Positions 2,958 to 64,000 of a stretch of 64,000 nt of DNA are shown one piece after another. The position numbers and the translations under genes were made by a program. The notes under the pieces were generated by a model, which had not been told where the DNA came from, did not search any database, and saw only the letters and a program-made list of their open reading frames with translations. Numbering within the stretch: position 1 is the first letter of the stretch; the number at the start of each line of letters is the position of its first letter. This DNA comes from Bacilli bacterium. Lineage in GTDB: Bacteria; Bacillota_I; Bacilli_A; ML615J-28; CAG-698. The stretch spans positions 6,332 through 70,331 of the forward strand of contig JBAYTA010000001.1 of the NCBI GenBank assembly GCA_041675865.1, given 5' to 3'.

Positions 2958-3953
2958 TTGAAAAGATTTTTATTGAGTTTATGTTTGCTATTTGTAATTT
3001 TATTTGTCAGTACCACATCGTTATACGCACAAGAATTTAATATTTATGTCATTCCTGGTGGTGACTCTATCGGGTTACAATTAAACACCGGAATTGTGAT
3101 TACTGGTAAGTACGATGTAAAAACAAAAAACGGTGAAGCATCACCATGGTCTAAAAGCGATATAGAAGTCGGAGATAAAATCTTAGAAGTCAATAATCAA
3201 GTTGTTAATAAAATAGGAGATTTACAGAAGATTATTTCTAATATAAAGAGTGATCAAGACGTTCTCATGAAGTTAAAAAGAGAAAATACTTTGATTATGA
3301 CTACATGTAAGGTTGTTAAATCTGACAATGATAAAATGTCATTAGGCTTATATGTAAAAGATGAGATAATGGGTGTTGGTACCATGACTTTCATCAAAAC
3401 AAACAAAAATACTTATGCTGCTTTAGGTCATTCAGTTATACCTGATGAATTAAATGGCAAAAGTTTAGGAACAATTACAGCATCAACTATTCGTGGAATT
3501 AGGAAATCATTACCTGGTGTTCCAGGTGAAAAACAAGCTACATTATCAACAGTATCGATTGGGTCAATTGAAAGAAATACTCAAATAGGTATCTTTGGTA
3601 AAGTAAATAATATAAATGATTTCTCCAATGAAAAGAAAATGAAAATTGCATCCCCAAATGAAGTAGTACTTGGTGATGCAGAAATTTGGACAGTTATTGA
3701 TGGTTCAAAAAAAGAAGTATATACAGTAAAAGTAGTTGACTTAAAGAAACAAACTAGTACAGGTATTAAAGGTATTAAAATTAAAATTACAGATGCAAGA
3801 CTATTAGAAACTACAGGTGGTATAATACAAGGCATGAGTGGCAGTCCAATAATTCAAAATGGAAAAATAATTGGTGCTGTATCGCATGTTGTTGTTGATT
3901 CTCCTGAATATGGTTACGGTGTATACGCGATGTGGATGTATAATGCTTTCTAA
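2958..3953 (+). CDS. spoIVB: stage IV sporulation protein B, SpoIVB (S55) serine peptidase
   Basis: It has an N-terminal signal anchor, a PDZ-like region and the SpoIVB peptidase motif 'IQGMSGSPII..GAVSHV'. It sits between recN and spo0A. The start is probably the TTG at 2958, but the exact start is uncertain. Confidence 0.85.
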   Translation: MKRFLLSLCLLFVILFVSTTSLYAQEFNIYVIPGGDSIGLQLNTGIVITGKYDVKTKNGEASPWSKSDIEVGDKILEVNNQVVNKIGDLQKIISNIKSDQDVLMKLKRENTLIMTTCKVVKSDNDKMSLGLYVKDEIMGVGTMTFIKTNKNTYAALGHSVIPDELNGKSLGTITASTIRGIRKSLPGVPGEKQATLSTVSIGSIERNTQIGIFGKVNNINDFSNEKKMKIASPNEVVLGDAEIWTVIDGSKKEVYTVKVVDLKKQTSTGIKGIKIKITDARLLETTGGIIQGMSGSPIIQNGKIIGAVSHVVVDSPEYGYGVYAMWMYNAF

Positions 3954-4438: not shown

Positions 4439-5254
4439 ATGAATAGTTTAAAGGTTATCATTGCTGATGACGGTAAAGAACTAGTCCAAGCAATGCAGGA
4501 CTTCTTTAGCGATAAAGAAGAGATTCAAGTTGTTGGTGTACACAATGATGGTGTTACTTTACTTAACACACTTCGTGTTACACAAGTCGATTTACTTATA
4601 CTGGATATTTTCATGCCAAACTTAGATGGGGTAAAAGTGTTACAAGAATTGAATTCCAGAAGAGACCGCTACAAAGTACCAAAAACTATCATTGCAGTAA
4701 CAGCTTTTTCAAATGAAAAAATTATGAATAGTGTTGCTGAATTAGGTGCAGATTACTTTGTTGTAAAACCTATTAACTTTACACATTTATTTGAAACTAT
4801 TAAAGATTTACACGAAAAGAAAAACGAAAAGAACCAAACCAAAACTCAGAGTGCATACAGTTTTAATAATAAAACTGATCTTGACACAGAAATTACAACA
4901 TTACTACATGAGATAGGAGTTCCAGCACACATAAGAGGATACCTTTATATCCGCGAAGCCATTACAATGGTTTATCATAATCTTGAAATTCTGGGCAATA
5001 TTACAAAGATATTATACCCAGAGGTAGCTAGAAAATTTAATACAACATCATCTAGAGTTGAAAGGGCAATTCGTCATGCAATAGAAGTTGCCTGGGTTAG
5101 AGGAAATATCGATGCAATAAGCGATATATTTAGTTATACTATAAGTTATCATAAATCTAAGCCAACAAACTCAGAATTTATAGCAATGATTGCTGATCGT
5201 TTACGTCTATTACATAAGCGAGAAAAACGAGAAGTGTTAACTAGAGTTGTATAA
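4439..5254 (+). CDS. spo0A: sporulation master response regulator Spo0A
   Basis: It has a receiver domain with the phospho-acceptor Asp in '[13 protein letters not shown]'. The C-terminal Spo0A-specific DNA-binding domain reads '[34 protein letters not shown]'. A GGAGGAG RBS precedes the ATG. Confidence 0.95.
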
Positions 5255-7865: not shown

Positions 7866-8095
7866 TCTATTTTAATAAATCGTTAAGGTAAGAATAGTAA
7901 TTAATTTGTTTTAAGTTAAAGCGAAAAGTGGTTGGTGAGAGCACTTACTTAAATATTAATGAAGGACACTTGCTTAGATTCCACCTAGGACGTAAATCTT
8001 GCGTTAAAGATTAAAGTGCATCATTTTGATGAAGTAAGGTGGTACCACGGATTAACAAATTCGTCCTTAAGATTTTTTCTTAAGGACTTTTATTT
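7866..8095 (+). promoter_or_regulatory. T-box riboswitch leader (tRNA-sensing transcription attenuator) of hisS-aspS
   Basis: The conserved T-box sequence 'AAGGTGGTACCACGG' lies at 8036-8050. It is followed by the terminator hairpin GTCCTTAAG..CTTAAGGAC plus TTTT at 8063-8092. A candidate specifier region 'GAAGGACAC' is at 7961-7969. Confidence 0.8.
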
Positions 8096-8118
8096 AAATT
8101 TAAATTAAGGAGATCAAT

Positions 8119-9381
8119 ATGTATCAAAAAGTAAAGGGAACTTTGGATTTTTATGATGAGAGTGCGATTAAGTATCGTTATTTAGAATCTGTTATATCTA
8201 AGGTTATTAAAAATTATGGTTATACTGAAGTTATTACACCAATTTTTGAAAATACAGAAATTTTTGTTAGAACATCTGGTGAAGAATCAGATATTGTAAC
8301 TAAAGAAATGTATACATTTTTAGATAAAGGCAAAAGAAGTATTACTTTAAGACCAGAAGGAACAGCTGGGGTTGTTAGAAGCTTTTTAGAGAATAAAATG
8401 TATGCAAATACAACTCTTACAAAACTGTATTATTTTGGTCCAATGTTTCGCTATGAAAGACCACAAACAGGTAGATACCGTCAATTTACACAATTTGGTG
8501 TAGAAGCTTTTGGTGCATCTTCACCTTTACTTGATGCAGATGTAATTATTAGCGCTTATCAAATTTTTAAATCTTTAGGAATCGATAACTTAAAATTAAA
8601 AATTAATACAATTGGTGATTTCACTTCTAGAAATAATTATGTTGATGTTTTACAAGATTATTTTAGGAAAGACATTGATAAACTATGTAGCGATTGTAAT
8701 AATAGATTAGAAAAAAATCCTTTAAGGATTTTAGATTGTAAAATTGATAGTGATAATCCAATAATTAAATCGGCTCCAAAAATTTCAGATTCCTTAACAC
8801 AAGAAGCAAAAGATTATTTTAAGGAAGTTTTAAAAGCTCTTGACTATAATAATATCAATTATTTTGTAGATGAAAATCTAGTTAGAGGACTTGATTATTA
8901 TACAGACACTGTCTTTGAATTTATAATTGAAAGTGATGATAATCTAAATGGTCTTGCAATTTGTGGTGGTGGAAAATACTCTGATATGGTTAAATCATTT
9001 GGAGGTCCAGATATTCCAGGAATTGGATATGCTTTTGGAATAGAAAGAGTTATCTCTATCATGGATCAAAAAGGTCTTTTTCCTAATTTAGATAAAGCTG
9101 CAGATGTTGTGTTAATTGCATTAGATGAAGAATCAAAATTATATAGTTTAAATCTTGCAAATAAATTACGAATGAATGGTTATTATGCAGATATAGATTA
9201 TTTTAATACTACTATGAAGCAACAATTTAAATTGAGTGATCGTTTGAATGCAAAATTCATTATAATAATTGGTGAAGAAGAGTTAGCAAATAATTCTCTA
9301 ACTATTAAAAACACTAAAACAAAAGAACAAATTACAATAAAAGAATATATGTTATTAGAATATTTAAAGGAGAAGATCTAA
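8119..9381 (+). CDS. hisS: histidine--tRNA ligase
   Basis: Class II aaRS motifs 'RPEGTAGVVR' and 'YYFGPMFRYERPQTGRYRQF', plus the HisRS anticodon-binding C-terminus. Confidence 0.95.
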   Translation: MYQKVKGTLDFYDESAIKYRYLESVISKVIKNYGYTEVITPIFENTEIFVRTSGEESDIVTKEMYTFLDKGKRSITLRPEGTAGVVRSFLENKMYANTTLTKLYYFGPMFRYERPQTGRYRQFTQFGVEAFGASSPLLDADVIISAYQIFKSLGIDNLKLKINTIGDFTSRNNYVDVLQDYFRKDIDKLCSDCNNRLEKNPLRILDCKIDSDNPIIKSAPKISDSLTQEAKDYFKEVLKALDYNNINYFVDENLVRGLDYYTDTVFEFIIESDDNLNGLAICGGGKYSDMVKSFGGPDIPGIGYAFGIERVISIMDQKGLFPNLDKAADVVLIALDEESKLYSLNLANKLRMNGYYADIDYFNTTMKQQFKLSDRLNAKFIIIIGEEELANNSLTIKNTKTKEQITIKEYMLLEYLKEKI

Positions 9382-11126
9382 TGCGAACACATAATAATGG
9401 CGAGTTAAGATTAAATGATGTAAATAAGGAAGTTAAATTAGTAGGTTGGGTTGCAAAAACTAGAAATTTAGGTGGTTTAATATTTATCGATTTAAGAGAT
9501 AGATATGGAATTACTCAAATTGTTTGTAAACCAGAAAATCCAAACTACGAAAAATTAGAAAATGTTAGAAATGAATACGTTCTTCAAGTTAAAGGGACTG
9601 TAATAGAAAGAGAAAGTAAAAATAAAAATTTACCAACAGGAGAAATTGAAGTTGTTGTACAAAATGTAATAATTTTGAGTGAAGCTAAAAATACTCCACT
9701 TATTATTGCCGATGAAACTGATGCTTTAGAAGATACTAGAATGAAGTATCGTTATTTAGACTTAAGAAGACCAGTAATGCAAAAGAACTTAATTCTCCGT
9801 CATAATATTGCAAAGTCAGTGAGAAACTATTTTAATGATTTAGATTTTGTTGAAATTGAGACTCCTGTATTTGGTAAATCAACTCCAGAAGGAGCAAGAG
9901 ATTACTTAGTTCCATCCAGAGTTAATCCAGGAAAGTTTTATGCACTTCCTCAATCACCACAAATCTATAAACAATTATTAATGGTTTCAGGATTTGAACG
10001 TTATTATCAAATAGTAAAGTGTTTCCGTGACGAAGACCAAAGAGCAGACCGTCAAATGGAATTTACTCAAATCGATGTTGAAATGAGTTTTGTAGATGAA
10101 GAAGATATTTATGTTTTAGTAGAAAAATTAATTTCCAAAATGATGAAGGAAGTTAAAAATATTGATGTTGAACTTCCATTCCCACGCTATAAATATGAGG
10201 AATCTTTAGATATCTTTGGAACTGATAAACCAGATACAAGATTTGCTTTACATTTAGTTAATATTGAAGATGCTATTAAAAATATTGAATTTGCAGTATT
10301 TACTGATACAATAAAAAATGGTGGAGTAGTAAAAGCTATTAATGCAAAAGATGCTGCAAATAAATATTCTCGTAAAGATATTGATAGATTAACAAATGAA
10401 GTTAAGAAATATAAGGCAAAAGGCCTTGCTTGGTTAAAATATGATAATAATGAATTTAGTGGATCGATTGTTAAATTCTTAACTGATGAAATAAAAGAAA
10501 ATTTAATTAAAAAATTAAATATTGAAAATAACGATATTATATTTATCGTAAGTGATGATAAGAAAATAACAAATCCTTCGCTTGGTCATTTAAGAAATGT
10601 CTTAGGAAAAGAATTAAATTTAATTGATAACTCAAAATTTAATTATTTATGGATAGTTGATTTTCCTTCTTTTGAATATGATGAAGAAGAAGGCCGTTAT
10701 ATCGCTGCCCATCATCCTTTTACATCGCCAAAGGATGAATTTAAAGATAAACTTCTATCAAACCCAGAAGAATGTTATTCTAAATGTTATGACTTAGTCT
10801 TAAATGGTTTTGAACTTGGAAGTGGATCAATTAGAATACATGACCAAAAAGTTCAATCAGATATGTTTAAAGCTATTGGTTTAAGCGATGATGAAATTAA
10901 AGAAAAATTTGGTTTCTTTGTTGAAGCATTAAAATATGGTACACCACCTCATGGTGGAATAGCATTAGGTTTAGATAGACTTGCTATGATTCTAACAGGC
11001 TCAACATCATTAAGAGATGTTATTGCATTCCCTAAATCTGCTTCCGCAATTGATCCAATGAGTGAAGCACCAAGTTTTATTAGTCAAAAACAATTAGATG
11101 AATTAAAATTGGTTATTAAAAAATGA
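9381..11126 (+). CDS. aspS: aspartate--tRNA ligase
   Basis: An N-terminal OB fold, 'FRDEDQRADRQMEFTQID', the GAD insertion, and 'GGIALGLDRLAM'. The start overlaps the hisS stop (TAATG). Confidence 0.95.
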   Translation: MRTHNNGELRLNDVNKEVKLVGWVAKTRNLGGLIFIDLRDRYGITQIVCKPENPNYEKLENVRNEYVLQVKGTVIERESKNKNLPTGEIEVVVQNVIILSEAKNTPLIIADETDALEDTRMKYRYLDLRRPVMQKNLILRHNIAKSVRNYFNDLDFVEIETPVFGKSTPEGARDYLVPSRVNPGKFYALPQSPQIYKQLLMVSGFERYYQIVKCFRDEDQRADRQMEFTQIDVEMSFVDEEDIYVLVEKLISKMMKEVKNIDVELPFPRYKYEESLDIFGTDKPDTRFALHLVNIEDAIKNIEFAVFTDTIKNGGVVKAINAKDAANKYSRKDIDRLTNEVKKYKAKGLAWLKYDNNEFSGSIVKFLTDEIKENLIKKLNIENNDIIFIVSDDKKITNPSLGHLRNVLGKELNLIDNSKFNYLWIVDFPSFEYDEEEGRYIAAHHPFTSPKDEFKDKLLSNPEECYSKCYDLVLNGFELGSGSIRIHDQKVQSDMFKAIGLSDDEIKEKFGFFVEALKYGTPPHGGIALGLDRLAMILTGSTSLRDVIAFPKSASAIDPMSEAPSFISQKQLDELKLVIKK

Positions 11127-58338: not shown

Positions 58339-58845
58339 TTAGATTTCAAATATGTAACCTAAAGGCGATATAAACGTCAATACAACGAAAAGTGTTGCAA
58401 TGACTATATAATTTGCTATACCTATTAATAAACTACGATTCAACTTAATTCCTTGGATGAAATAAGTTGCTATTGAACCAGCAATTATTGATATAAAATA
58501 AACTATATTAATTGCAATAATATTATTAAAGACCCAAGTTTTAGAATAGATATTAAAAATAACTAAAGTCATTGTAGACATTACAAAAACCCCAAAGACT
58601 CTAGATAATATATAATTATTTGGTAGATCAAAAGATATAAAATATTCAATAATCATTAACAAAGAAATAGCAAAGAAATAGTTTTTCAATATCTCAAAGA
58701 TAGTTATTTTATTAGGCAATAAATTACTAGCACCTACAATTCTTAAACTTTGCACTGTTAATATTAATATATATAATATAACTCCAATAAATAAAATTTC
58801 ATTGATCAATCTAGACTTTTTAAATAATGTCATTCTTATCACCAA
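58339..58845 (-). CDS. polytopic membrane protein (hypothetical)
   Basis: 168 aa with five hydrophobic helices, sitting between the lipoprotein and glyQS. Confidence 0.45.
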   Translation of the reverse strand: MVIRMTLFKKSRLINEILFIGVILYILILTVQSLRIVGASNLLPNKITIFEILKNYFFAISLLMIIEYFISFDLPNNYILSRVFGVFVMSTMTLVIFNIYSKTWVFNNIIAINIVYFISIIAGSIATYFIQGIKLNRSLLIGIANYIVIATLFVVLTFISPLGYIFEI

Positions 58846-58937: not shown

Positions 58938-59906
58938 TTATTTTACTTTGTTATAAAGATCTTGCAATACTTTAATGTAATCATTTGTTTTTACTGTAAC
59001 ACCAGTAACAACTAATGTTGTACCATCTTTAGAAATACCACGATCTTTAATTGATTTTAATCCTTCGATTCCGTTTTCTAAAACATAATCTGTAATCATC
59101 TTAGATTGTTTGAACCATTCGTTTTTAGATTTGCCTTCAGCAACTACTGACCAATCACCGTTTTTGAATTCGTATTCTGGTCCATTGCCTTCCATATTAT
59201 AATCATCACCTAATTCAAGTTTTGATTTTGCATTCCAAACGAATTTGTTATCAACTACAGATCCTTGAATTGTATCAAGTTTTAATTCAGTGAATTTGCC
59301 ATCTTTGTCAACTTTAGCAGTTGCAAATACTACAGCGTTAGAAGCAGGAACCCATGCTTTAACAACGCCATCTTTAGCCATTTGTAAAGCTTCTTTTGCT
59401 AATTCTGAATATCCACCATCTTTAATAGTAACACCAGCATCAACATTTGTGAATCTGTCATCAACTTTTTCAACAGCTTCAGGTCCATTTGCTAAGAAGA
59501 AATCTTCAATAAGTTTAGCTTGTTCAAACCATTCTTTTTCAGATTTTTTATCTGCAACAACTTCCCATTTTCCATCTTTGAATTCATATTTAGGTCCATT
59601 ACCTTTCATACCATACTCATTACCAAGTTCTTTTTTAGTCTTAGCATTGAAAGCATAAGTATAAACCGGTTCTTCTTCTGTACCAGTATTTGTTTTTGTG
59701 TTTTGTAATACATCGATATAATAAGATTTAACCTTATCATTTTCGATAGTTACAGAAACGCTAGTAACTTGTGGTCCATCGTTAGAATGAGTTTCCCACT
59801 TGAAAGCAGTGTAAACACCATCTGCTGCATAAGTTCTTTCGCCACAAGCAACGAACAATAATGCTGATACTGCAACAATAAACACTAATAAAAATTTTTT
59901 AAACAT
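58938..59906 (-). CDS. lipoprotein with an internal tandem duplication (possible FMN-binding repeats)
   Basis: A signal peptide with lipobox 'LFVAC'. Two about 150-aa repeats ('YEFKDGKWEVVADKKSEKEWFEQAK..' and 'YEFKNGDWSVVAEGKSKNEWFKQSK..') each end in a G-V-T motif ('DAGVTIKDG' and 'VTGVTVKTN'). Confidence 0.55.
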   Translation of the reverse strand: MFKKFLLVFIVAVSALLFVACGERTYAADGVYTAFKWETHSNDGPQVTSVSVTIENDKVKSYYIDVLQNTKTNTGTEEEPVYTYAFNAKTKKELGNEYGMKGNGPKYEFKDGKWEVVADKKSEKEWFEQAKLIEDFFLANGPEAVEKVDDRFTNVDAGVTIKDGGYSELAKEALQMAKDGVVKAWVPASNAVVFATAKVDKDGKFTELKLDTIQGSVVDNKFVWNAKSKLELGDDYNMEGNGPEYEFKNGDWSVVAEGKSKNEWFKQSKMITDYVLENGIEGLKSIKDRGISKDGTTLVVTGVTVKTNDYIKVLQDLYNKVK

Positions 59907-60050: not shown

Positions 60051-60368
60051 TTAATTGTTTTCGCTAAGTTTACGATCGTAATCTTCAAGATAAGCTTTGA
60101 TTTTATCACGCATATCTTGTTTTCCAGGTTTGCATAGTTTTGAGTCCGCACCGTCAAAAACTATTGCATTTGCAAGTCCATTACAGCCAGGATGACCGCA
60201 TGCACCGCAGTTATAACCAGGTAATAAATTGGTAATATCTTCAACTCTTGGATCTTCTTCTACATAAAATGCAATCGAAGCAACTGATATTAATACACCG
60301 AATACTCCACCAGTTATAGCCAAAACTATAGCTGGTAATAAATAAGATTGAAACACACTTAAAATCAT
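60051..60368 (-). CDS. rnfB: Rnf complex subunit B, minimal form (N-terminal Fe-S domain only)
   Basis: An N-terminal transmembrane helix plus 'CGACGHPGCNGLANAI..C'. It is 105 aa and lacks the usual ferredoxin domains. Confidence 0.65.
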   Translation of the reverse strand: MILSVFQSYLLPAIVLAITGGVFGVLISVASIAFYVEEDPRVEDITNLLPGYNCGACGHPGCNGLANAIVFDGADSKLCKPGKQDMRDKIKAYLEDYDRKLSENN

Positions 60369-60940
60369 ATGTTTAATGCTCCAAATCTAGAAAATATCAT
60401 TGCAAGAAGTCCTGCAGTAACTAATGCAATAGGAACTCCTTTAAACGCAACTGGAACATCAGCTTTCAATAATCTTACTCTTATAGTTGAAAATAAATAG
60501 ATTACAAATAAGAAACCAACGCTTGATGCAAATGCAAATACAAATGCACTTACAAACGTATAATCAGGAGTTGCAACCATTTTCGCAAGACCTAATACAG
60601 CACAGTTAGTTGTAATTAATGGAAGGTATACACCTAATGCTTTATATAAACCAGGTGATACTTTTTTAATAAACATTTCAATTATTTGAACTAATCCTGC
60701 AATCACAAGAATAAAGATAATTGTTTGCATGTAAACCATATTAAATGGTCTTAATACAAATGTATATAATAGATAAGCAACAGTAGATGATAAAGTAATA
60801 ACAAATACAACTGCTAGTCCCATACCAACTGAAGATTCACGTTTTTCAGATACCCCAAGTAATGGGCAAATACCTAAAAATCTATTTAGTACAACATTTT
60901 GAATTAATATAGCAGATATAGCTAGTGAGAATAGATTCAT
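60365..60940 (-). CDS. rnfA: Rnf complex subunit A
   Basis: 'NVVLNRFLGICPLLGVS' and six transmembrane helices. Confidence 0.9.
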   Translation of the reverse strand: MNLFSLAISAILIQNVVLNRFLGICPLLGVSEKRESSVGMGLAVVFVITLSSTVAYLLYTFVLRPFNMVYMQTIIFILVIAGLVQIIEMFIKKVSPGLYKALGVYLPLITTNCAVLGLAKMVATPDYTFVSAFVFAFASSVGFLFVIYLFSTIRVRLLKADVPVAFKGVPIALVTAGLLAMIFSRFGALNI

Positions 60941-61563
60941 TATTTCTTCACCTCTTTACGTTTATTATTAATTATATTAGCAAGTCCAATGATAATTCCT
61001 AGAATAATAAATGCTGATGGAGGGTTAAGGAAGAAATTATTAAAGAACTTAGCTGAACTATCAAAAATTTGTAATTCAACACCAGACCAAATTGAAATTG
61101 ATCCTGTTCCTAGGAATTCTCTTATAATAGCCATAACTATTAAAACTCCACTATAACCTACTGCCATACCAACTGCATCTAAGAATGAATTACCTACATT
61201 GTTTTGTGAAGCAAATGCTTCAGCACGTCCTAATATAATACAGTTAACAACAATCAATGAAATCCATACACCTAAATTGTTATACAATTCTGGTAAGAAT
61301 GCATTCATTAACATTTCTGCTAATGTAACTAAAGTTGCAACTACAACTATGTAAATAGGAATTCTAATTTCATGAGGTACGATTTTTCTAATCAATGAAA
61401 TTATAATATTAGATAATACGATTACAAATGTAAAAGCTAAACCTAATCCAATAGAATCTTTTAGAGATCCAGTAACAGCAAGAACTGAACAAAGACCTAA
61501 TAAAGATACTAAAACTGGATTTTCATTCCACATACCTTTTAATAAATTTTCTCTTTTAGTCAT
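60940..61563 (-). CDS. rnfE: Rnf complex subunit E
   Basis: 'LLGLCSVLAVTGSLKDSIGLGLA', a paralogue of RnfA. Confidence 0.9.
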   Translation of the reverse strand: MTKRENLLKGMWNENPVLVSLLGLCSVLAVTGSLKDSIGLGLAFTFVIVLSNIIISLIRKIVPHEIRIPIYIVVVATLVTLAEMLMNAFLPELYNNLGVWISLIVVNCIILGRAEAFASQNNVGNSFLDAVGMAVGYSGVLIVMAIIREFLGTGSISIWSGVELQIFDSSAKFFNNFFLNPPSAFIILGIIIGLANIINNKRKEVKK

Positions 61564-62122
61564 TAGTTACACCTCCAAGATCAGCTTTAATTGTTTTGAA
61601 GTGATCAGCAGCCGCATCAAAGCCAGCAATGATTGCACCTAGTGTAAACTGGGGTGTTACACCAGCTACTACTGGAGAATAACTATCAACATTTTGATCA
61701 GCCATACCGAAATCATGATCCATAATTTTATCAGCAAAGCTTGGTGTATCATCATGAGAAATCATTTTTGCTTTTCCAAAAGTTCCATCAACTTTTATTT
61801 CCACAAAACATCTTACAAATCCTGTTTTTTCATAACCAGGAACTGCAGTTTGGTAAATTACAGCTGCTAAGCTACCATCTTCATTAAATGCAAAGAAGAT
61901 TTCTTGGATAGCATCACTTGATTCAGGATAATCAACTTTTTTACCAAATGAGTAATCAGCATAATCAAATTCTTTTCTTAATGCACCAACAACTTGTTCT
62001 TTTGCTCTTTCTTCAATTATTGGTGAAGTTAAAGCATTAACAGCACCAAGTAATACTCCAGCAATTAATCCTAACACTACTAAGAATACAGTATATTTTA
62101 ATATTTTTTTATTATTATTCAT
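61556..62122 (-). CDS. rnfG: Rnf complex subunit G (FMN-binding)
   Basis: An N-terminal transmembrane helix and an FMN_bind domain. The flavin-site motif reads 'VAGVTPQFT', so Thr is kept but the context is G-V-T rather than the canonical G-A-T. Confidence 0.85.
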   Translation of the reverse strand: MNNNKKILKYTVFLVVLGLIAGVLLGAVNALTSPIIEERAKEQVVGALRKEFDYADYSFGKKVDYPESSDAIQEIFFAFNEDGSLAAVIYQTAVPGYEKTGFVRCFVEIKVDGTFGKAKMISHDDTPSFADKIMDHDFGMADQNVDSYSPVVAGVTPQFTLGAIIAGFDAAADHFKTIKADLGGVTND

Positions 62123-64000
62123 CTGTACCCTCCAAATATTTCAAATAATCTAAAGCCATATTTGCAGCTTTCACAATCGCTCTTGATGTAACAGAAGCTC
62201 CAGATACAACTTCTACTTCACTTAAATCAGCTTGTTTAGAAACAATTTCAGTAGGGATTTTATCTTGTGGATGAATTCCTCCACCAACGTCACTCCATTC
62301 ACCATGCATATAAGATTCGCCTGTAGTTTCATTTTTTAAATCATTTGTTTCTACAGCAGTGATCTTAAACTCTTCATCAAATGTGAATGTTGTTGTGATA
62401 GGATTTTTAAATCCTTTTGTTCTAACAACGATTGTTGTTTCAGTCTTACTTACATAATAAGCATCAAATTTATTAGCATCTATTGCAGCTTCTACATCAG
62501 CTAAAATTTCAGCAGGAACAGTTGATGTTATTTCATAATCAGTATCTGTTGTAACAATAGTTTTACTATCAGCATCTCTAAATACATAAACAAATTCTAA
62601 TGTTTCTAAATCTTGAGATACACCAACTAATGTAAGTTCAGTAATAGTATCTAAATAATCAACATATGCCTGAGCAACGCCTACAGCATTTTTAATAGCA
62701 TTAGAAGTAACAGTAGCACCTGCAACAACACCAACACTACTTAAATCATCTTGATTAGCAATAATATCACCAGGAATTTTATCTTTTGGATGAACTCCGC
62801 CACCAACATTTTGCCATTCTCCGCTTGGATATGACTCGTTATATGTAACTACAAAATCAGTAATAACAAAATCATTATCATATGTAATAACATTTGTGAC
62901 AGCACCAGCAAATCCACCTGTAATAATAGTTAATTCTAAGTAGTCAGCACCTTCATTAGCGCTTTGTACAAAGTTTCTAATTTTATTATCATTGATTAAT
63001 TTTGCTAATTCTTCTTTTGATTCTGCATTATCAAATTCTTGATTGCTTACTTGTTTTATAGTAAAGTCTTGAGCAGTAGTAACAGTAAACTCTTCACCAT
63101 TAGATGTAAATTTGTAAACAAAATCAAATGATTTATAGTCTTGTGAACTTTCTACATATTCAAATTCAGGCATTACAACTGGTTCTACAATGCTTTTAAC
63201 AACTGGGAATACTGAAATACCAGCTAATAATAATCCCACTAAAGTATATGATAAAACCATTTTTTTCTTGTTAGGTTCAACTCTTAATTTTGTTGCAAAT
63301 CTTTCGATTATAGCAGTAAACATATTAAGAGCTAAAATAGATACTGCAACACCTTCTGGATTATTAGATGCAAACCTAAACACAACAGTTAATACACCAA
63401 GACCTAAAGCATAAATAATTTTACCATTAGGGTTTCTTGGACTAGTTACTGGTTCAGTTGCCATGAATACAGCACCAAACATTAAACCACCACTAAATAT
63501 ATTAAATAAAGCAAAGTTTAATGTACCAGCATAACCATTGATTGCACCAATAATATAAGTTAATACGAATACAGTTCCGATATAGATTACTGGAATTCTC
63601 CAGTTAATTACTTTTCTCACTAATAGATAGATTAAACCTACTAAACAAAGTAATGCACTTGTTTCTGCAATTACTCCAGGATTAAATCCTAAGAATAAAT
63701 TTAAAATGCCATATTTTTCTAACATAGCTTCATAACCAACAAAAATGTTAGCAAATTCTGCTGGGTTTTTAATTGCACTAAGTGGTGTTGCACCAACTGT
63801 TATAGCTTCAGTAGGATTTAAAAATCCTTTTGATCCAAAACTAGTAGCTCCACCCATAAGTCCAAAATATGAATAAGTAGTTAGAAAAACAAATCCTATT
63901 AAAGCAGGGTTAAATATATTATGGCCAAATCCACCAAATAGTAATTTCGCAATTACAGTTGCAAATATTGTACCAATAAATAATACCCAAATTGGAGTTG
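62115..64000 (-). CDS. rnfD: Rnf complex subunit D fused to two C-terminal FMN-binding domains (N-terminus beyond the window)
   Basis: An RnfD/NqrB membrane core with 'TVGATPL'. A 355-aa extension carries two FMN_bind-like domains with 'VAGATVTS' and 'VSGASVTS'. The ORF stays open to nt 64000. Confidence 0.8.
   Translation of the reverse strand, partial: TPIWVLFIGTIFATVIAKLLFGGFGHNIFNPALIGFVFLTTYSYFGLMGGATSFGSKGFLNPTEAITVGATPLSAIKNPAEFANIFVGYEAMLEKYGILNLFLGFNPGVIAETSALLCLVGLIYLLVRKVINWRIPVIYIGTVFVLTYIIGAINGYAGTLNFALFNIFSGGLMFGAVFMATEPVTSPRNPNGKIIYALGLGVLTVVFRFASNNPEGVAVSILALNMFTAIIERFATKLRVEPNKKKMVLSYTLVGLLLAGISVFPVVKSIVEPVVMPEFEYVESSQDYKSFDFVYKFTSNGEEFTVTTAQDFTIKQVSNQEFDNAESKEELAKLINDNKIRNFVQSANEGADYLELTIITGGFAGAVTNVITYDNDFVITDFVVTYNESYPSGEWQNVGGGVHPKDKIPGDIIANQDDLSSVGVVAGATVTSNAIKNAVGVAQAYVDYLDTITELTLVGVSQDLETLEFVYVFRDADSKTIVTTDTDYEITSTVPAEILADVEAAIDANKFDAYYVSKTETTIVVRTKGFKNPITTTFTFDEEFKITAVETNDLKNETTGESYMHGEWSDVGGGIHPQDKIPTEIVSKQADLSEVEVVSGASVTSRAIVKAANMALDYLKYLEGTDE

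What the first reader, a model, noticed from the sequence alone, without database searches (positions are those of the whole stretch)
62115..63185. RnfD carrying two extra C-terminal FMN-binding domains
The ORF has a normal RnfD membrane core with the 'TVGATPL' flavin site. It then continues for about 355 residues containing two FMN_bind-like modules. Each has the hallmark 'D..S.G..AGATVTS' or 'VSGASVTS' motif, with Thr382 and Ser555 as putative flavinylation sites. Standard RnfD is about 320 aa with a single covalent FMN. Adding the RnfG FMN, this complex would carry four extracytoplasmic flavins. That points to an extended electron wire towards the outside of the membrane rather than a plain ferredoxin:NAD+ ion pump.
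Basis: partly seen in the sequence, partly recalled or inferred. Interest (0 to 1): 0.65.

Follow-up and report, generated by a model that had tools for sequence, protein, structure and literature searches.

The report
RnfD fused to two flavin domains
This is a real gene in which a membrane subunit of the Rnf redox pump carries two extra outward-facing flavin-binding domains; it is a lineage-specific variant of multi-flavin Rnf complexes that others have already proposed pass electrons to the outside of the cell.

Summary
The minus-strand ORF at 62115 to beyond 64000 matches the full-length 742-aa protein P0001. It has an RnfD core with flavinylation site Thr186, a Lys-rich linker, an eleventh TM helix, and two tandem modules that are 37% identical to each other. 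Each module passes Pfam's FMN_bind cut-off and carries a conserved [A/S/T]GA[T/S] site (Thr544, Ser717) exactly at the start of its last helix.

It is not a frameshift. Two independent assemblies hold the identical ORF. Dozens of relatives at 35-66% identity share the architecture, all from uncultured Acholeplasmatales, Izemoplasmatales and "Bacilli" genomes.

The rnfCDGEAB operon is otherwise complete, so this is still an Rnf complex, not a replacement for one. A lipoprotein encoded just downstream is a predicted double-flavin FMN-bind2 protein. The locus therefore predicts up to six covalent FMNs.

It remains untested, and no ApbE flavin transferase was found in the window. The RnfD fusion itself appears undescribed in the literature searched. 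Verdict: new variant of a known kind; interest 0.45.

The parts
62115..64000 (-). rnfD fusion gene. It is incomplete in the window; the first 115 codons lie beyond 64000. The full protein is P0001, 742 aa.
   Evidence: The identical ORF is in L001 and L002, with rnfC directly upstream.
63288..64000 (-). RnfD membrane core, residues 116-352 of P0001. The covalent-FMN threonine Thr186 is the codon at 63786-63788.
   Evidence: Pfam PF03116 scores 208 bits. Full-length TIGR01946 scores 195 bits, just under its 207 cut-off. Thr186 is invariant in 117 of 117 homologues. The codon was checked.
63186..63287 (-). Lys-rich cytoplasmic linker (RVEPNKKK) followed by an extra eleventh TM helix (MVLSYTLVGLLLAGISVFPVV, 63195-63260). 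The helix would carry the chain to the outer face of the membrane.
   Evidence: Hydropathy scan. The AF2 model has a helix at residues 2-22 of the extension. The C-terminus of canonical RnfD is cytoplasmic (PMC9588780). The helix is also present in the unfused RnfD P0081.
62649..63185 (-). Module 1: a small beta/alpha subdomain followed by an FMN_bind domain (62679-62915). The predicted flavinylation site is Thr544 in VVAGATVTS (codon 62712-62714).
62118..62648 (-). Module 2, a tandem duplicate of module 1. Its FMN_bind domain is at 62148-62414. The predicted flavinylation site is Ser717 in VVSGASVTS (codon 62193-62195).
61556..62122 (-). rnfG, 188 aa. Its start overlaps the rnfD stop by 8 nt. 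The predicted flavinylation site is Thr156 in the variant motif VAGVTPQ (codon 61655-61657).
   Evidence: NCBIfam rnfG E = 2e-11, Pfam FMN_bind only E = 0.09. The site aligns with T or S in 35 of 35 orthologues.
60940..61563 (-). rnfE
   Evidence: Pfam Rnf-Nqr scores 206 bits. TIGR01948 scores 222 bits, above its cut-off.
60365..60940 (-). rnfA
   Evidence: Pfam Rnf-Nqr scores 176 bits. TIGR01943 scores 232 bits, above its cut-off.
60051..60368 (-). Short rnfB, 105 aa. It has only a TM helix and the four-cysteine FdI domain, with no ferredoxin-like FdII or FdIII domains.
   Evidence: Pfam PF04060 scores 41 bits. RnfB is 78-110 aa in 55 of 56 related loci. T. maritima RnfB is a precedent.
58938..59906 (-). 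Lipoprotein of 322 aa (P0121) with two FMN-bind2-type domains. The predicted flavinylation sites are Thr160 (DAGVTIKD, codon 59427-59429) and Thr304 (VTGVTVKT, codon 58995-58997). It is the probable electron partner of the RnfD modules.
   Evidence: No Pfam hit. In 40 homologues both sites are T or S only. AF2 pLDDT is 93.6. Foldseek gives 2kzx and 3o6u at probability 1.0. The family profile matches 2kzx at E = 1.5e-8, with GVT aligned on SGAT. It is adjacent in 7 of 7 assessable window-type loci.

Best explanation
The gene encodes a genuine fusion protein. From N- to C-terminus it has:
- a complete RnfD core with its covalent-FMN threonine;
- a positively charged cytoplasmic linker;
- one additional TM helix;
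- two tandemly duplicated modules outside the membrane, each ending in an FMN_bind domain with an ApbE-type flavinylation site (Thr544, Ser717).

The gene sits in a complete rnfCDGEAB operon. The complex should therefore still run the normal loop: ferredoxin to RnfB, to RnfA/E, to the RnfG FMN outside, to the RnfD FMN, to RnfC, to NAD+.

The two tethered FMN domains lie on the same outer face as the mobile RnfG flavin. They most likely tap that node and carry electrons onward. The first acceptor would be the two-flavin lipoprotein encoded immediately downstream. Beyond that would be extracytoplasmic acceptors such as free flavins, Fe(III), O2 or secreted reductases. This would let a fermenter dispose of NADH and ferredoxin electrons outside the cell.

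Shown here: the architecture, the domain identities, the conserved sites, the operon context and the spread among relatives.

Inferred: the outside topology, the actual flavinylation, the branch in the electron path, the lipoprotein partnership and the identity of the acceptor.
For: **Architecture and sites**
- Pfam finds RnfD plus two FMN_bind domains, each above cut-off.
- The AF2 model has pLDDT 86, and the terminal helices start at Thr544 and Ser717. Known flavinylated threonines sit in the same position (PMC9588780; PMC10339131).
- Motif G and A are invariant, and the modified residue is T or S only.

**Topology**
- The C-terminus of canonical RnfD is cytoplasmic.
- A KKK linker and one TM helix follow the core here.

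**Complete Rnf**
- RnfC (TIGR01945, 372 bits), RnfG, RnfE, RnfA and RnfB are all present.
- RnfD Thr186 is invariant. RnfG Thr156 aligns with T or S in 35 of 35 orthologues.

**Real and under selection**
- The identical ORF occurs in two other assemblies.
- Nine GTDB species share the window-type architecture. Forty-nine of 64 assessable related loci have modules fused to RnfD.

**Partner protein**
- The downstream lipoprotein belongs to the 2kzx/3o6u FMN-bind family, with conserved T or S at both sites.
- It is adjacent in 7 of 7 assessable window-type loci and in 6 of 7 loci where the modules are a separate gene.

**Precedent**
- Méheust 2021 proposed that multi-flavinylated RNF complexes give a second path to extracytosolic acceptors.
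- The multi-FMN protein SaFMN3 has Em -184 mV, and its reduced form reduces O2. That potential is above the standard NADH and ferredoxin potentials (about -320 mV and below; own knowledge), so transfer from those donors would be downhill.
Against: - No flavin transferase (ApbE/FmnB) was found. It was absent from 20 window ORFs of 191-400 aa and from within 10 kb in four related loci. The rest of the genome could not be searched.
- No extracytoplasmic reductase or acceptor-related gene is in the operon.
- In 31 related loci the fused module or modules are the only RnfG-like domain. A fused module can therefore simply be RnfG.
- Lipoprotein adjacency follows lineage. It is seen in 0 of 23 loci that lack a separate rnfG and in 2 of 7 loci with one fused module, so the co-occurrence is weak evidence.
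- The lipoprotein has a promoter-like site of its own, though such matches are common in this AT-rich DNA.
- Nothing here measures electron flow.
Confidence: 0.5

Rival explanations
1. The extra domains serve only the normal internal Rnf loop. They would be RnfG paralogues that duplicate, buffer or replace the RnfG flavin shuttle between RnfA/E and RnfD. There is no electron output to the outside, and the complex is a plain ferredoxin:NAD+ pump with a decorated RnfD.
For: - In 31 related GTDB loci, RnfD carries one or two fused modules and there is no separate rnfG gene. A fused module must act as RnfG there.
- All canonical subunits and cofactor sites are retained.
- No acceptor-side enzyme is encoded in the operon.
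Against: - This locus keeps a separate RnfG with a conserved site and adds two further modules. Three flavin domains for one shuttle step lacks an obvious rationale.
- A conserved two-flavin lipoprotein follows the operon in 7 of 7 assessable loci of this architecture.
- The modules' closest structural matches include secreted multi-flavin proteins, not only RnfG.
- The modules show no detectable pairwise similarity to the operon's own RnfG.
Confidence: 0.3
2. The outward flavins mainly react with oxygen. The tethered FMN domains and the lipoprotein would burn NADH and ferredoxin electrons on O2 at the cell surface, protecting an anaerobe from oxygen. They would not feed a defined respiratory acceptor.
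For: - Reduced SaFMN3, a multi-FMN_bind protein, uses O2 as electron acceptor (PMC10339131).
- From memory, and not verified with the papers held here: Acholeplasma species are classically reported to have membrane-bound NADH oxidase activity.
Against: - No evidence on oxygen exposure or on peroxide-handling genes in the window.
- This is a sub-case of the branch model and differs only in the acceptor.
Confidence: 0.12
3. The extension is redox-inactive. It would be a structural, adhesive or degenerate remnant of FMN_bind domains that no longer binds flavin.
For: - Some relatives have deviant motifs (ATAT, ADAT, SSAT, SGTT).
- Flavinylation has not been shown, and no ApbE was found nearby.
Against: - The modified residue stays T or S, and the G-A before it is invariant among close homologues.
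- Even the deviant motifs keep the threonine.
- Both domains score above the Pfam cut-off and fold confidently.
Confidence: 0.05
4. Assembly or frameshift artefact: the extension is really a separate RnfG-like gene wrongly joined to rnfD.
For: - In some relatives (for example L006) homologous modules are encoded by a separate gene after a 408-aa RnfD.
- One MAG (L017) has rnfD split into two ORFs.
Against: - The identical continuous ORF is present in the window and in two independent assemblies.
- The same continuous architecture is found in dozens of proteins at 35-66% identity and in 9 GTDB species, with a conserved junction RVEPNK[KR]K plus TM helix.
Confidence: 0.01

Closest known systems
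Canonical RnfD/NqrB (for example C. tetanomorphum Rnf 7ZC6, A. vinelandii 8AHX, A. woodii 9ERI)
   Same: Same membrane core (Pfam PF03116), same covalent-FMN threonine, same place in an rnfCDGEAB operon.
   Different: - Canonical RnfD ends about 10 residues into the cytoplasm.
- This protein adds a TM helix and about 356 extracytoplasmic residues with two FMN_bind domains.
- The core is divergent: TIGR01946 scores 195 bits against a cut-off of 207.
RnfG/NqrC, the extracytoplasmic covalent-FMN subunit
   Different: - It does not reach the rnfG model cut-off (33 bits against 102).
- It has no detectable pairwise similarity to the operon's own RnfG.
- Each module has an extra N-terminal beta/alpha subdomain.
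- The anchor is RnfD's own extra helix.
Multi-flavinylated RnfG in RNF gene clusters (Méheust et al. 2021, eLife, PMC8238504)
   Same: An Rnf cluster that encodes a protein with more than one FMN_bind domain. The proposed function is the same: a second path to extracytosolic acceptors.
   Different: - Those were described as RnfG variants. Here the domains are fused to RnfD and a normal RnfG is kept as well.
- I found no paper that names an RnfD-FMN_bind fusion.
Secreted multi-FMN proteins SaFMN3 and CbFMN4 (Tong et al. 2023, PMC10339131; PDB 8P2A, 8P2B)
   Different: They are soluble beads-on-a-string proteins with near-identical repeats. They are not attached to a membrane redox pump.
Flavinylated FMN-binding lipoproteins: the paired FMN-bind2 proteins of Huang et al. 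2024, T. pallidum TP0171, and (own knowledge) Listeria PplA
   Same: The downstream 322-aa lipoprotein has two FMN-bind2-type domains with conserved T/S sites. It matches 2kzx and 3o6u. JGI gives its homologues the name 'major membrane immunogen (membrane-anchored lipoprotein)'. TP0171 is a flavinylated periplasmic lipoprotein with an NqrC-type FMN-binding motif; that this JGI name marks TP0171's protein group is my recollection, not tested.
   Different: - The motif is mostly G-V-T rather than G-A-T.
- It is encoded next to Rnf. From my own knowledge, the Listeria system uses Ndh2, quinone and EetA/B instead.
- Its flavinylation is untested.
Nqr/Rnf-like two-subunit systems: an NqrB/RnfD membrane domain fused to an NqrF NAD-binding domain (Méheust 2021; Huang 2024)
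   Same: An RnfD-family membrane domain fused to an extra redox domain. These are proposed to send electrons one way to an extracytosolic FMN domain.
   Different: - In those systems the fused domain is cytosolic (PF00175), the RnfD threonine is lost, and RnfA, B, C and E are absent.
- None of that applies here.

Membership tests
RnfD/NqrB (Pfam PF03116; NCBIfam TIGR01946) | Profile match above the curated cut-off | tested here: met
   Pfam scores 208 bits against a cut-off of 27.7. The stricter TIGR01946 subfamily model gives 195 bits against 207 for the full-length protein, slightly under cut-off.
RnfD/NqrB (Pfam PF03116; NCBIfam TIGR01946) | Conserved threonine of the [S/T]GAT-type site that carries covalent FMN | tested here: met
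   TVGAT186PL. The threonine is present in 117 of 117 aligned homologues.
RnfD/NqrB (Pfam PF03116; NCBIfam TIGR01946) | Encoded with rnfC, G, E, A and B | tested here: met
   The gene order is rnfC-D-G-E-A-B. The same order holds in relatives.
RnfD/NqrB (Pfam PF03116; NCBIfam TIGR01946) | Covalently bound FMN and ferredoxin:NAD+ oxidoreductase activity of the complex | not testable with these tools
   Needs biochemistry.
FMN_bind domain (Pfam PF04205), ApbE substrate | Profile match above the gathering score for each module | tested here: met
   31.9 and 42.4 bits against a cut-off of 22.
FMN_bind domain (Pfam PF04205), ApbE substrate | [S/T]GA[S/T]-like motif with the modified Thr/Ser at the N-terminus of the last helix | tested here: met
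   AGAT544 and SGAS717. G and A are invariant, and the site is T or S in homologues. The AF2 helices start at these residues.
FMN_bind domain (Pfam PF04205), ApbE substrate | FMN_bind fold | tested here: met
FMN_bind domain (Pfam PF04205), ApbE substrate | Extracytoplasmic location | tested here: inconclusive
   This is inferred only. The canonical RnfD C-terminus is cytoplasmic, and a KKK linker and one TM helix follow here. No topology predictor or experiment was run.
FMN_bind domain (Pfam PF04205), ApbE substrate | A flavin transferase (ApbE/FmnB) in the same genome | tested here: inconclusive
   None was found among 20 window ORFs of 191-400 aa or within 10 kb in L003-L006. The rest of the genome is not available.
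RnfG (NCBIfam TIGR01947) | Profile match of the extension above cut-off | tested here: not met
   33-34 bits against a cut-off of 102. The modules are RnfG-like, not RnfG equivalents. The separate 188-aa gene is the RnfG orthologue by position and by its N-terminal match, although it also scores below cut-off (44 bits).
Multi-flavinylated extracytosolic proteins (Méheust 2021 definition: more than one FMN_bind domain) | Two or more FMN_bind domains in one predicted extracytosolic polypeptide | tested here: met
   Two domains. The outside location is inferred as described above.
Nqr/Rnf-like system (NqrB/RnfD fused to NqrF, PF00175) | C-terminal cytosolic NAD-binding domain PF00175, and loss of the RnfD threonine | tested here: not met
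   There is no PF00175 hit, and Thr186 is conserved.
FMN-bind2 paired-domain flavoproteins (Huang 2024), for the downstream lipoprotein | Two domains of about 160 aa, each related to FMN-bind1 (3O6U), with flavinylation-type sites, missed by Pfam | tested here: met
   No Pfam hit. The compact two-domain model has pLDDT 93.6 and pTM 0.87. Foldseek gives 2kzx and 3o6u at probability 1.0. The profile matches 2kzx at E = 1.5e-8 with GVT aligned on SGAT. Both sites are T or S in 40 of 40 homologues. Flavinylation itself is not testable here.

The most novel reading that the evidence does not exclude
In this uncultured Bacilli/Acholeplasmatales lineage, the Rnf complex itself would be the membrane conduit for flavin-based extracellular electron transfer.

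Electrons from NADH and ferredoxin would leave the normal loop at the RnfG flavin. They would hop along two FMNs tethered to RnfD, then two FMNs on the co-encoded lipoprotein. Counting the RnfD and RnfG flavins, that is a six-flavin chain with no haem and no quinone, ending at an external acceptor.

This would make Rnf an outward-facing respiratory module rather than only a ferredoxin:NAD+ pump.
Probability: 0.35. Interest if true: 0.7.

Novelty: new variant of a known kind. Interest (0 to 1): 0.45.

Why it matters
Multi-flavinylated proteins have been proposed as the flavin counterpart of multi-haem cytochrome wires. How they connect to cytoplasmic electron pools is largely untested.

In this locus the connection is written into one polypeptide and one gene neighbourhood:
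- a complete Rnf pump;
- two FMN domains covalently tethered to its RnfD subunit;
- a two-flavin lipoprotein encoded next door.

That gives a compact, clonable system for a direct test. The question is whether Rnf can export electrons, and whether chains of covalently bound flavins carry them.

It also shows that annotation as plain "RnfD" hides a family of architectures in uncultured gut, digester and sediment Bacilli. These include one to four fused modules, modules split into a separate gene, and true RnfD-RnfG fusions with no rnfG gene.

If the domains turn out to serve only the internal loop, the finding is an ordinary lineage-specific gene fusion.

Tried and rejected
- **Short RnfB as evidence against ferredoxin coupling.** The 105-aa RnfB has only a TM helix and the FdI domain. 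I dropped this argument because Vitt et al. 2022 state that T. maritima RnfB is also FdI-only. RnfB is also short in 55 of 56 related loci whatever the RnfD architecture.
- **RnfG as a degenerate domain replaced by the fused modules.** Pfam E = 0.09, and one HMMER alignment put Gly on the flavin threonine. An alignment of 36 RnfG ORFs from the related loci places Thr156 on a T/S-only column in all 35 readable sequences. Val at position -1 is common there, and also at the RnfD site.
- **"Motif-less" fused modules in some relatives**. This was an artefact of my regular expression. They carry ATAT, ADAT, SSAT or SGTT and keep the threonine.
- **Lipoprotein adjacency as a co-occurrence argument.** It holds for window-type loci (7 of 7) and split-gene loci (6 of 7). 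It fails for one-module loci (2 of 7) and RnfD-RnfG fusions (0 of 23). It therefore tracks lineage and is weak evidence.
- **Profile-profile comparison of the lipoprotein with the extension.** Nothing was found. The link came from a PDB profile search and Foldseek instead.
- **Genome scans.**
  - A scan with the extension alone found nothing.
  - A full-length alignment worked.
- **ApbE.** Not found.
- **Membrane NADH oxidase of Acholeplasma.** The literature search returned nothing usable.
- **Promoter and terminator scan** between rnfB and the lipoprotein gene. Not informative in this AT-rich DNA.
Full report
**1. What is in the sequence**

The feature is on the minus strand. One ORF ends with a stop at 62115-62117 and runs off the window at 64000. 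A database search returned an identical full-length protein, P0001 (742 aa), which NCBI names [quoted passage not shown]. The window holds residues 116-742.

The window is about 30% G+C here.

**2. Anatomy of the protein (P0001 numbering)**

- Residues 1-352 are an RnfD core. Pfam PF03116 scores 208 bits. The stricter TIGR01946 model gives 195 bits against a cut-off of 207 for the full protein, so the core is somewhat divergent.
- The covalent-FMN threonine (TVGAT186PL) is present in 117 of 117 aligned homologues. The residue before it is often Val instead of Ala (SGVTPL, AGVTPM).
- Residues 353-386 are a Lys-rich linker (RVEPNKKK) and a hydrophobic helix (MVLSYTLVGLLLAGISVFPVV). In the solved Rnf complex the last 10 residues of RnfD are in the cytoplasm (PMC9588780). 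One more TM helix would therefore put the rest of the chain outside. This topology is inferred, not tested.
- Residues 387-565 and 566-742 are two modules, 37% identical to each other (E = 5e-33). Each is a small beta/alpha subdomain followed by an FMN_bind domain.
- Each module alone passes Pfam's gathering score (31.9 and 42.4 bits against 22).
- An AlphaFold2 model built on 17 homologues has pLDDT 86 and pTM 0.72. The last helix of each module begins exactly at Thr544 and Ser717. The flavinylated threonine sits in that position in RnfG and in crystal structures of flavinylated domains.
- The modules do not reach the rnfG model cut-off (33 bits against 102). They show no pairwise similarity to the operon's own RnfG.

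**3. Not an artefact**

- Two independent Logan assemblies (L001, L002) carry the identical 742-aa ORF, with rnfC directly upstream.
- Dozens of database proteins at 35-66% identity have the same continuous architecture, with [A/S/T]GA[T/S] in both modules.
- The junction (linker plus TM helix) is conserved.

**4. The operon**

The gene order is rnfC (in L001; TIGR01945, 372 bits), rnfD-fusion, rnfG, rnfE, rnfA, rnfB.

- RnfG has only a weak Pfam FMN_bind hit and the motif VAGVT156PQ. In an alignment of 36 RnfG ORFs from the related loci, all 35 readable sequences have T or S at this column (26 T, 9 S). The residue before it is A, V, S, T or P. RnfG very probably keeps its flavin.
- RnfA and RnfE keep the paired cysteines, read directly from the translations. 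RnfB has the CxxCxxxxCx16C motif. RnfC has two CxxCxxCxxxCP motifs.
- RnfB is only 105 aa, with a TM helix and the FdI domain. That looked unusual at first. However, T. maritima RnfB is described as FdI-only, and RnfB is 78-110 aa in 55 of 56 related loci.

The complex therefore looks like a complete Rnf with an addition.

**5. The neighbouring lipoprotein**

About 145 bp downstream of rnfB is a 322-aa lipoprotein gene (58938-59906). It has two internal repeats and no Pfam or NCBIfam hit.

- JGI names its homologues "major membrane immunogen (membrane-anchored lipoprotein)". From memory, not checked here, this is the name of the protein group that contains T. pallidum TP0171, a periplasmic lipoprotein shown to be flavinylated (PMC4436053).
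- In 40 homologues the two candidate sites are T or S only (35 T/5 S and 34 T/6 S). They are preceded by V or A and, in most homologues (36 and 30 of 40), by G.
- The AlphaFold2 model is compact, with pLDDT 93.6 and pTM 0.87.
- Its only confident Foldseek matches are 2KZX and 3O6U, at probability 1.0.
- The family profile matches 2KZX at E = 1.5e-8, with the lipoprotein's GVT aligned on 2KZX's SGAT.
- Huang et al. 2024 call 3O6U a flavinylated FMN-bind1 protein. They describe a larger FMN-bind2 subtype that comes in pairs and had to be found by BLAST searches. This lipoprotein fits that class.

The locus therefore predicts up to six covalent FMNs: RnfD 186, 544 and 717; RnfG 156; and lipoprotein 160 and 304.

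**6. Distribution**

A scan of GTDB species representatives gave 254 relatives. The best 80 are all uncultured genomes. Most are labelled Acholeplasmataceae, Acholeplasmatales, Izemoplasmatales, Tenericutes, Bacilli or Bacillota, and a few MAGs carry other labels such as Bacteroidales or Muribaculaceae. I called ORFs in these loci and searched them with the window's proteins and a module HMM.

| Architecture | Loci | Lipoprotein adjacent (assessable loci) |
|---|---|---|
| Two fused modules plus separate rnfG (window type) | 9 | 7 of 7 |
| One fused module plus rnfG | 9 | 2 of 7 |
| Unfused ~380-440-aa RnfD, separate module gene, plus rnfG | 11 | 6 of 7 |
| One or two fused modules, no rnfG gene (true RnfD-RnfG fusions) | 31 | 0 of 23 |
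| Unfused RnfD plus rnfG only | 4 | 0 of 1 |
| Incomplete locus | 16 | not assessable |

- In the one unfused RnfD examined (P0081, locus L006) the extra TM helix is retained. The separate gene after it is homologous to the window's modules (33% identity, E = 3e-19).
- One relative has a 990-aa RnfD with four module matches.
- A search of 1.84 billion cluster representatives with the extension found only 77 hits at E ≤ 1e-3. Many of the weaker ones are generic multi-FMN_bind proteins. This particular module type is a small, lineage-limited family at single-sequence sensitivity.

**7. How it most likely works**

Established knowledge (Vitt 2022) is that electrons run from ferredoxin via RnfB and RnfA/E to the mobile, outward-facing RnfG flavin. 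From there they return through the RnfD flavins and RnfC to NAD+.

The two tethered FMN domains sit on the same face. The most economical reading is that they tap this outer node and pass electrons on. The next carrier would be the two-flavin lipoprotein, followed by external acceptors. Méheust et al. 2021 proposed exactly this for "multi-flavinylated RnfG" in RNF clusters. A characterised multi-FMN protein has Em -184 mV, and its reduced form reduces O2, so outward flow from NADH or ferredoxin would be downhill.

I give this about 0.5. The architecture and the predicted sites are near certain; the branch function is about even odds.

The main rival (0.3) is that the modules serve only the internal loop. 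The 31 loci in which a fused module must itself be RnfG support this. An oxygen-scavenging role is a sub-case of the branch model that differs only in the acceptor. A redox-dead remnant and an assembly artefact are unlikely.

**8. What is missing**

- No ApbE/FmnB was found among 20 window ORFs of suitable size, nor within 10 kb in four related loci.
- No acceptor-side enzyme is in the neighbourhood.
- Nothing measures flavinylation or electron flow.

**9. Comparison with what is known, and novelty**

The parts are known: RnfD, FMN_bind/RnfG-like domains and FMN-bind2 lipoproteins. The functional idea is published. Automated annotation already records PF03116 plus PF04205 on these proteins.

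In the searchable literature I found no description of FMN_bind domains fused to RnfD, of RnfD-RnfG fusions without rnfG, or of the linked lipoprotein.

I rate it a new variant of a known kind, interest 0.45. It would not astonish a specialist. It does offer a compact, clonable system for testing whether Rnf can drive a covalent-flavin wire.

Noticed in passing
window 58938-59906 (-): A 322-aa lipoprotein with no Pfam or NCBIfam hit. It is a predicted paired FMN-bind2 flavoprotein with two conserved [A/T/S]G[V/A][T/S] sites (Thr160, Thr304). The usual Ala before the modified residue is mostly Val. It lies next to the Rnf operon in most close relatives.
   Followed up: yes
window 61556-62122 (-); RnfD site at 63786-63788: A G-V-T variant of the G-A-T flavinylation motif recurs. 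It occurs in this RnfG (AGVT156), in 8 of 36 RnfG orthologues, at the RnfD membrane site of many homologues (SGVTPL, AGVTPM), and in the lipoprotein family. This suggests the lineage's flavin transferase tolerates Val at position -1.
   Followed up: partly
window 60051-60368 (-): RnfB is only 105 aa (TM helix plus the four-cysteine FdI domain) and lacks the ferredoxin-like domains. RnfB is 78-110 aa in 55 of 56 related loci. T. maritima RnfB is a published precedent.
   Followed up: yes
window 58339-58845 (-): A 168-aa multi-pass membrane protein with no family match in Pfam or NCBIfam. Relatives L003, L004, L013 and L018 have a 163-172-aa homologue directly after the lipoprotein gene. Its function is unknown. 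A role in the same system, for example flavin handling, is pure speculation.
   Followed up: no
L036, L040-L077 and others (GTDB loci): In 31 species-representative loci of uncultured Bacilli (some from gut metagenomes), RnfD carries one or two FMN_bind modules and there is no separate rnfG gene. These are true RnfD-RnfG fusions of 460-603 aa. I found no mention of them in the literature searched.
   Followed up: partly
L006 10001-13300; L005 10001-12973: The same modules occur as a separate 364-aa gene after a 408-aa RnfD that still has the extra TM helix (L006). They also occur as a 990-aa RnfD with four module matches (L005). Gene fusion or fission and module number vary within the clade.
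   Followed up: partly
window 4439-5254 (+) and 2958-3953 (+); L003-L006 upstream genes: The window encodes Spo0A and a SpoIVB peptidase. Relatives have YqfD next to the operon, and one has SpoIVA. These are sporulation genes in a lineage whose relatives are labelled Acholeplasmataceae or Tenericutes, so these organisms may not be wall-less mollicutes.
   Followed up: no
window 62115-62122: The rnfD stop and the rnfG start overlap by 8 nt, rnfG/rnfE overlap by 8 nt, rnfE/rnfA by 1 nt and rnfA/rnfB by 4 nt. This is consistent with translational coupling along the operon.
   Followed up: no
window 59290-59658 (+): A 122-aa ORF lies antisense inside the lipoprotein gene. It is almost certainly a spurious ORF.
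   Followed up: no
L017 about 8001-10197: In one MAG the rnfD fusion is split into ORFs of 242 and 540 aa. This is probably a frameshift or sequencing error in that assembly.
   Followed up: no
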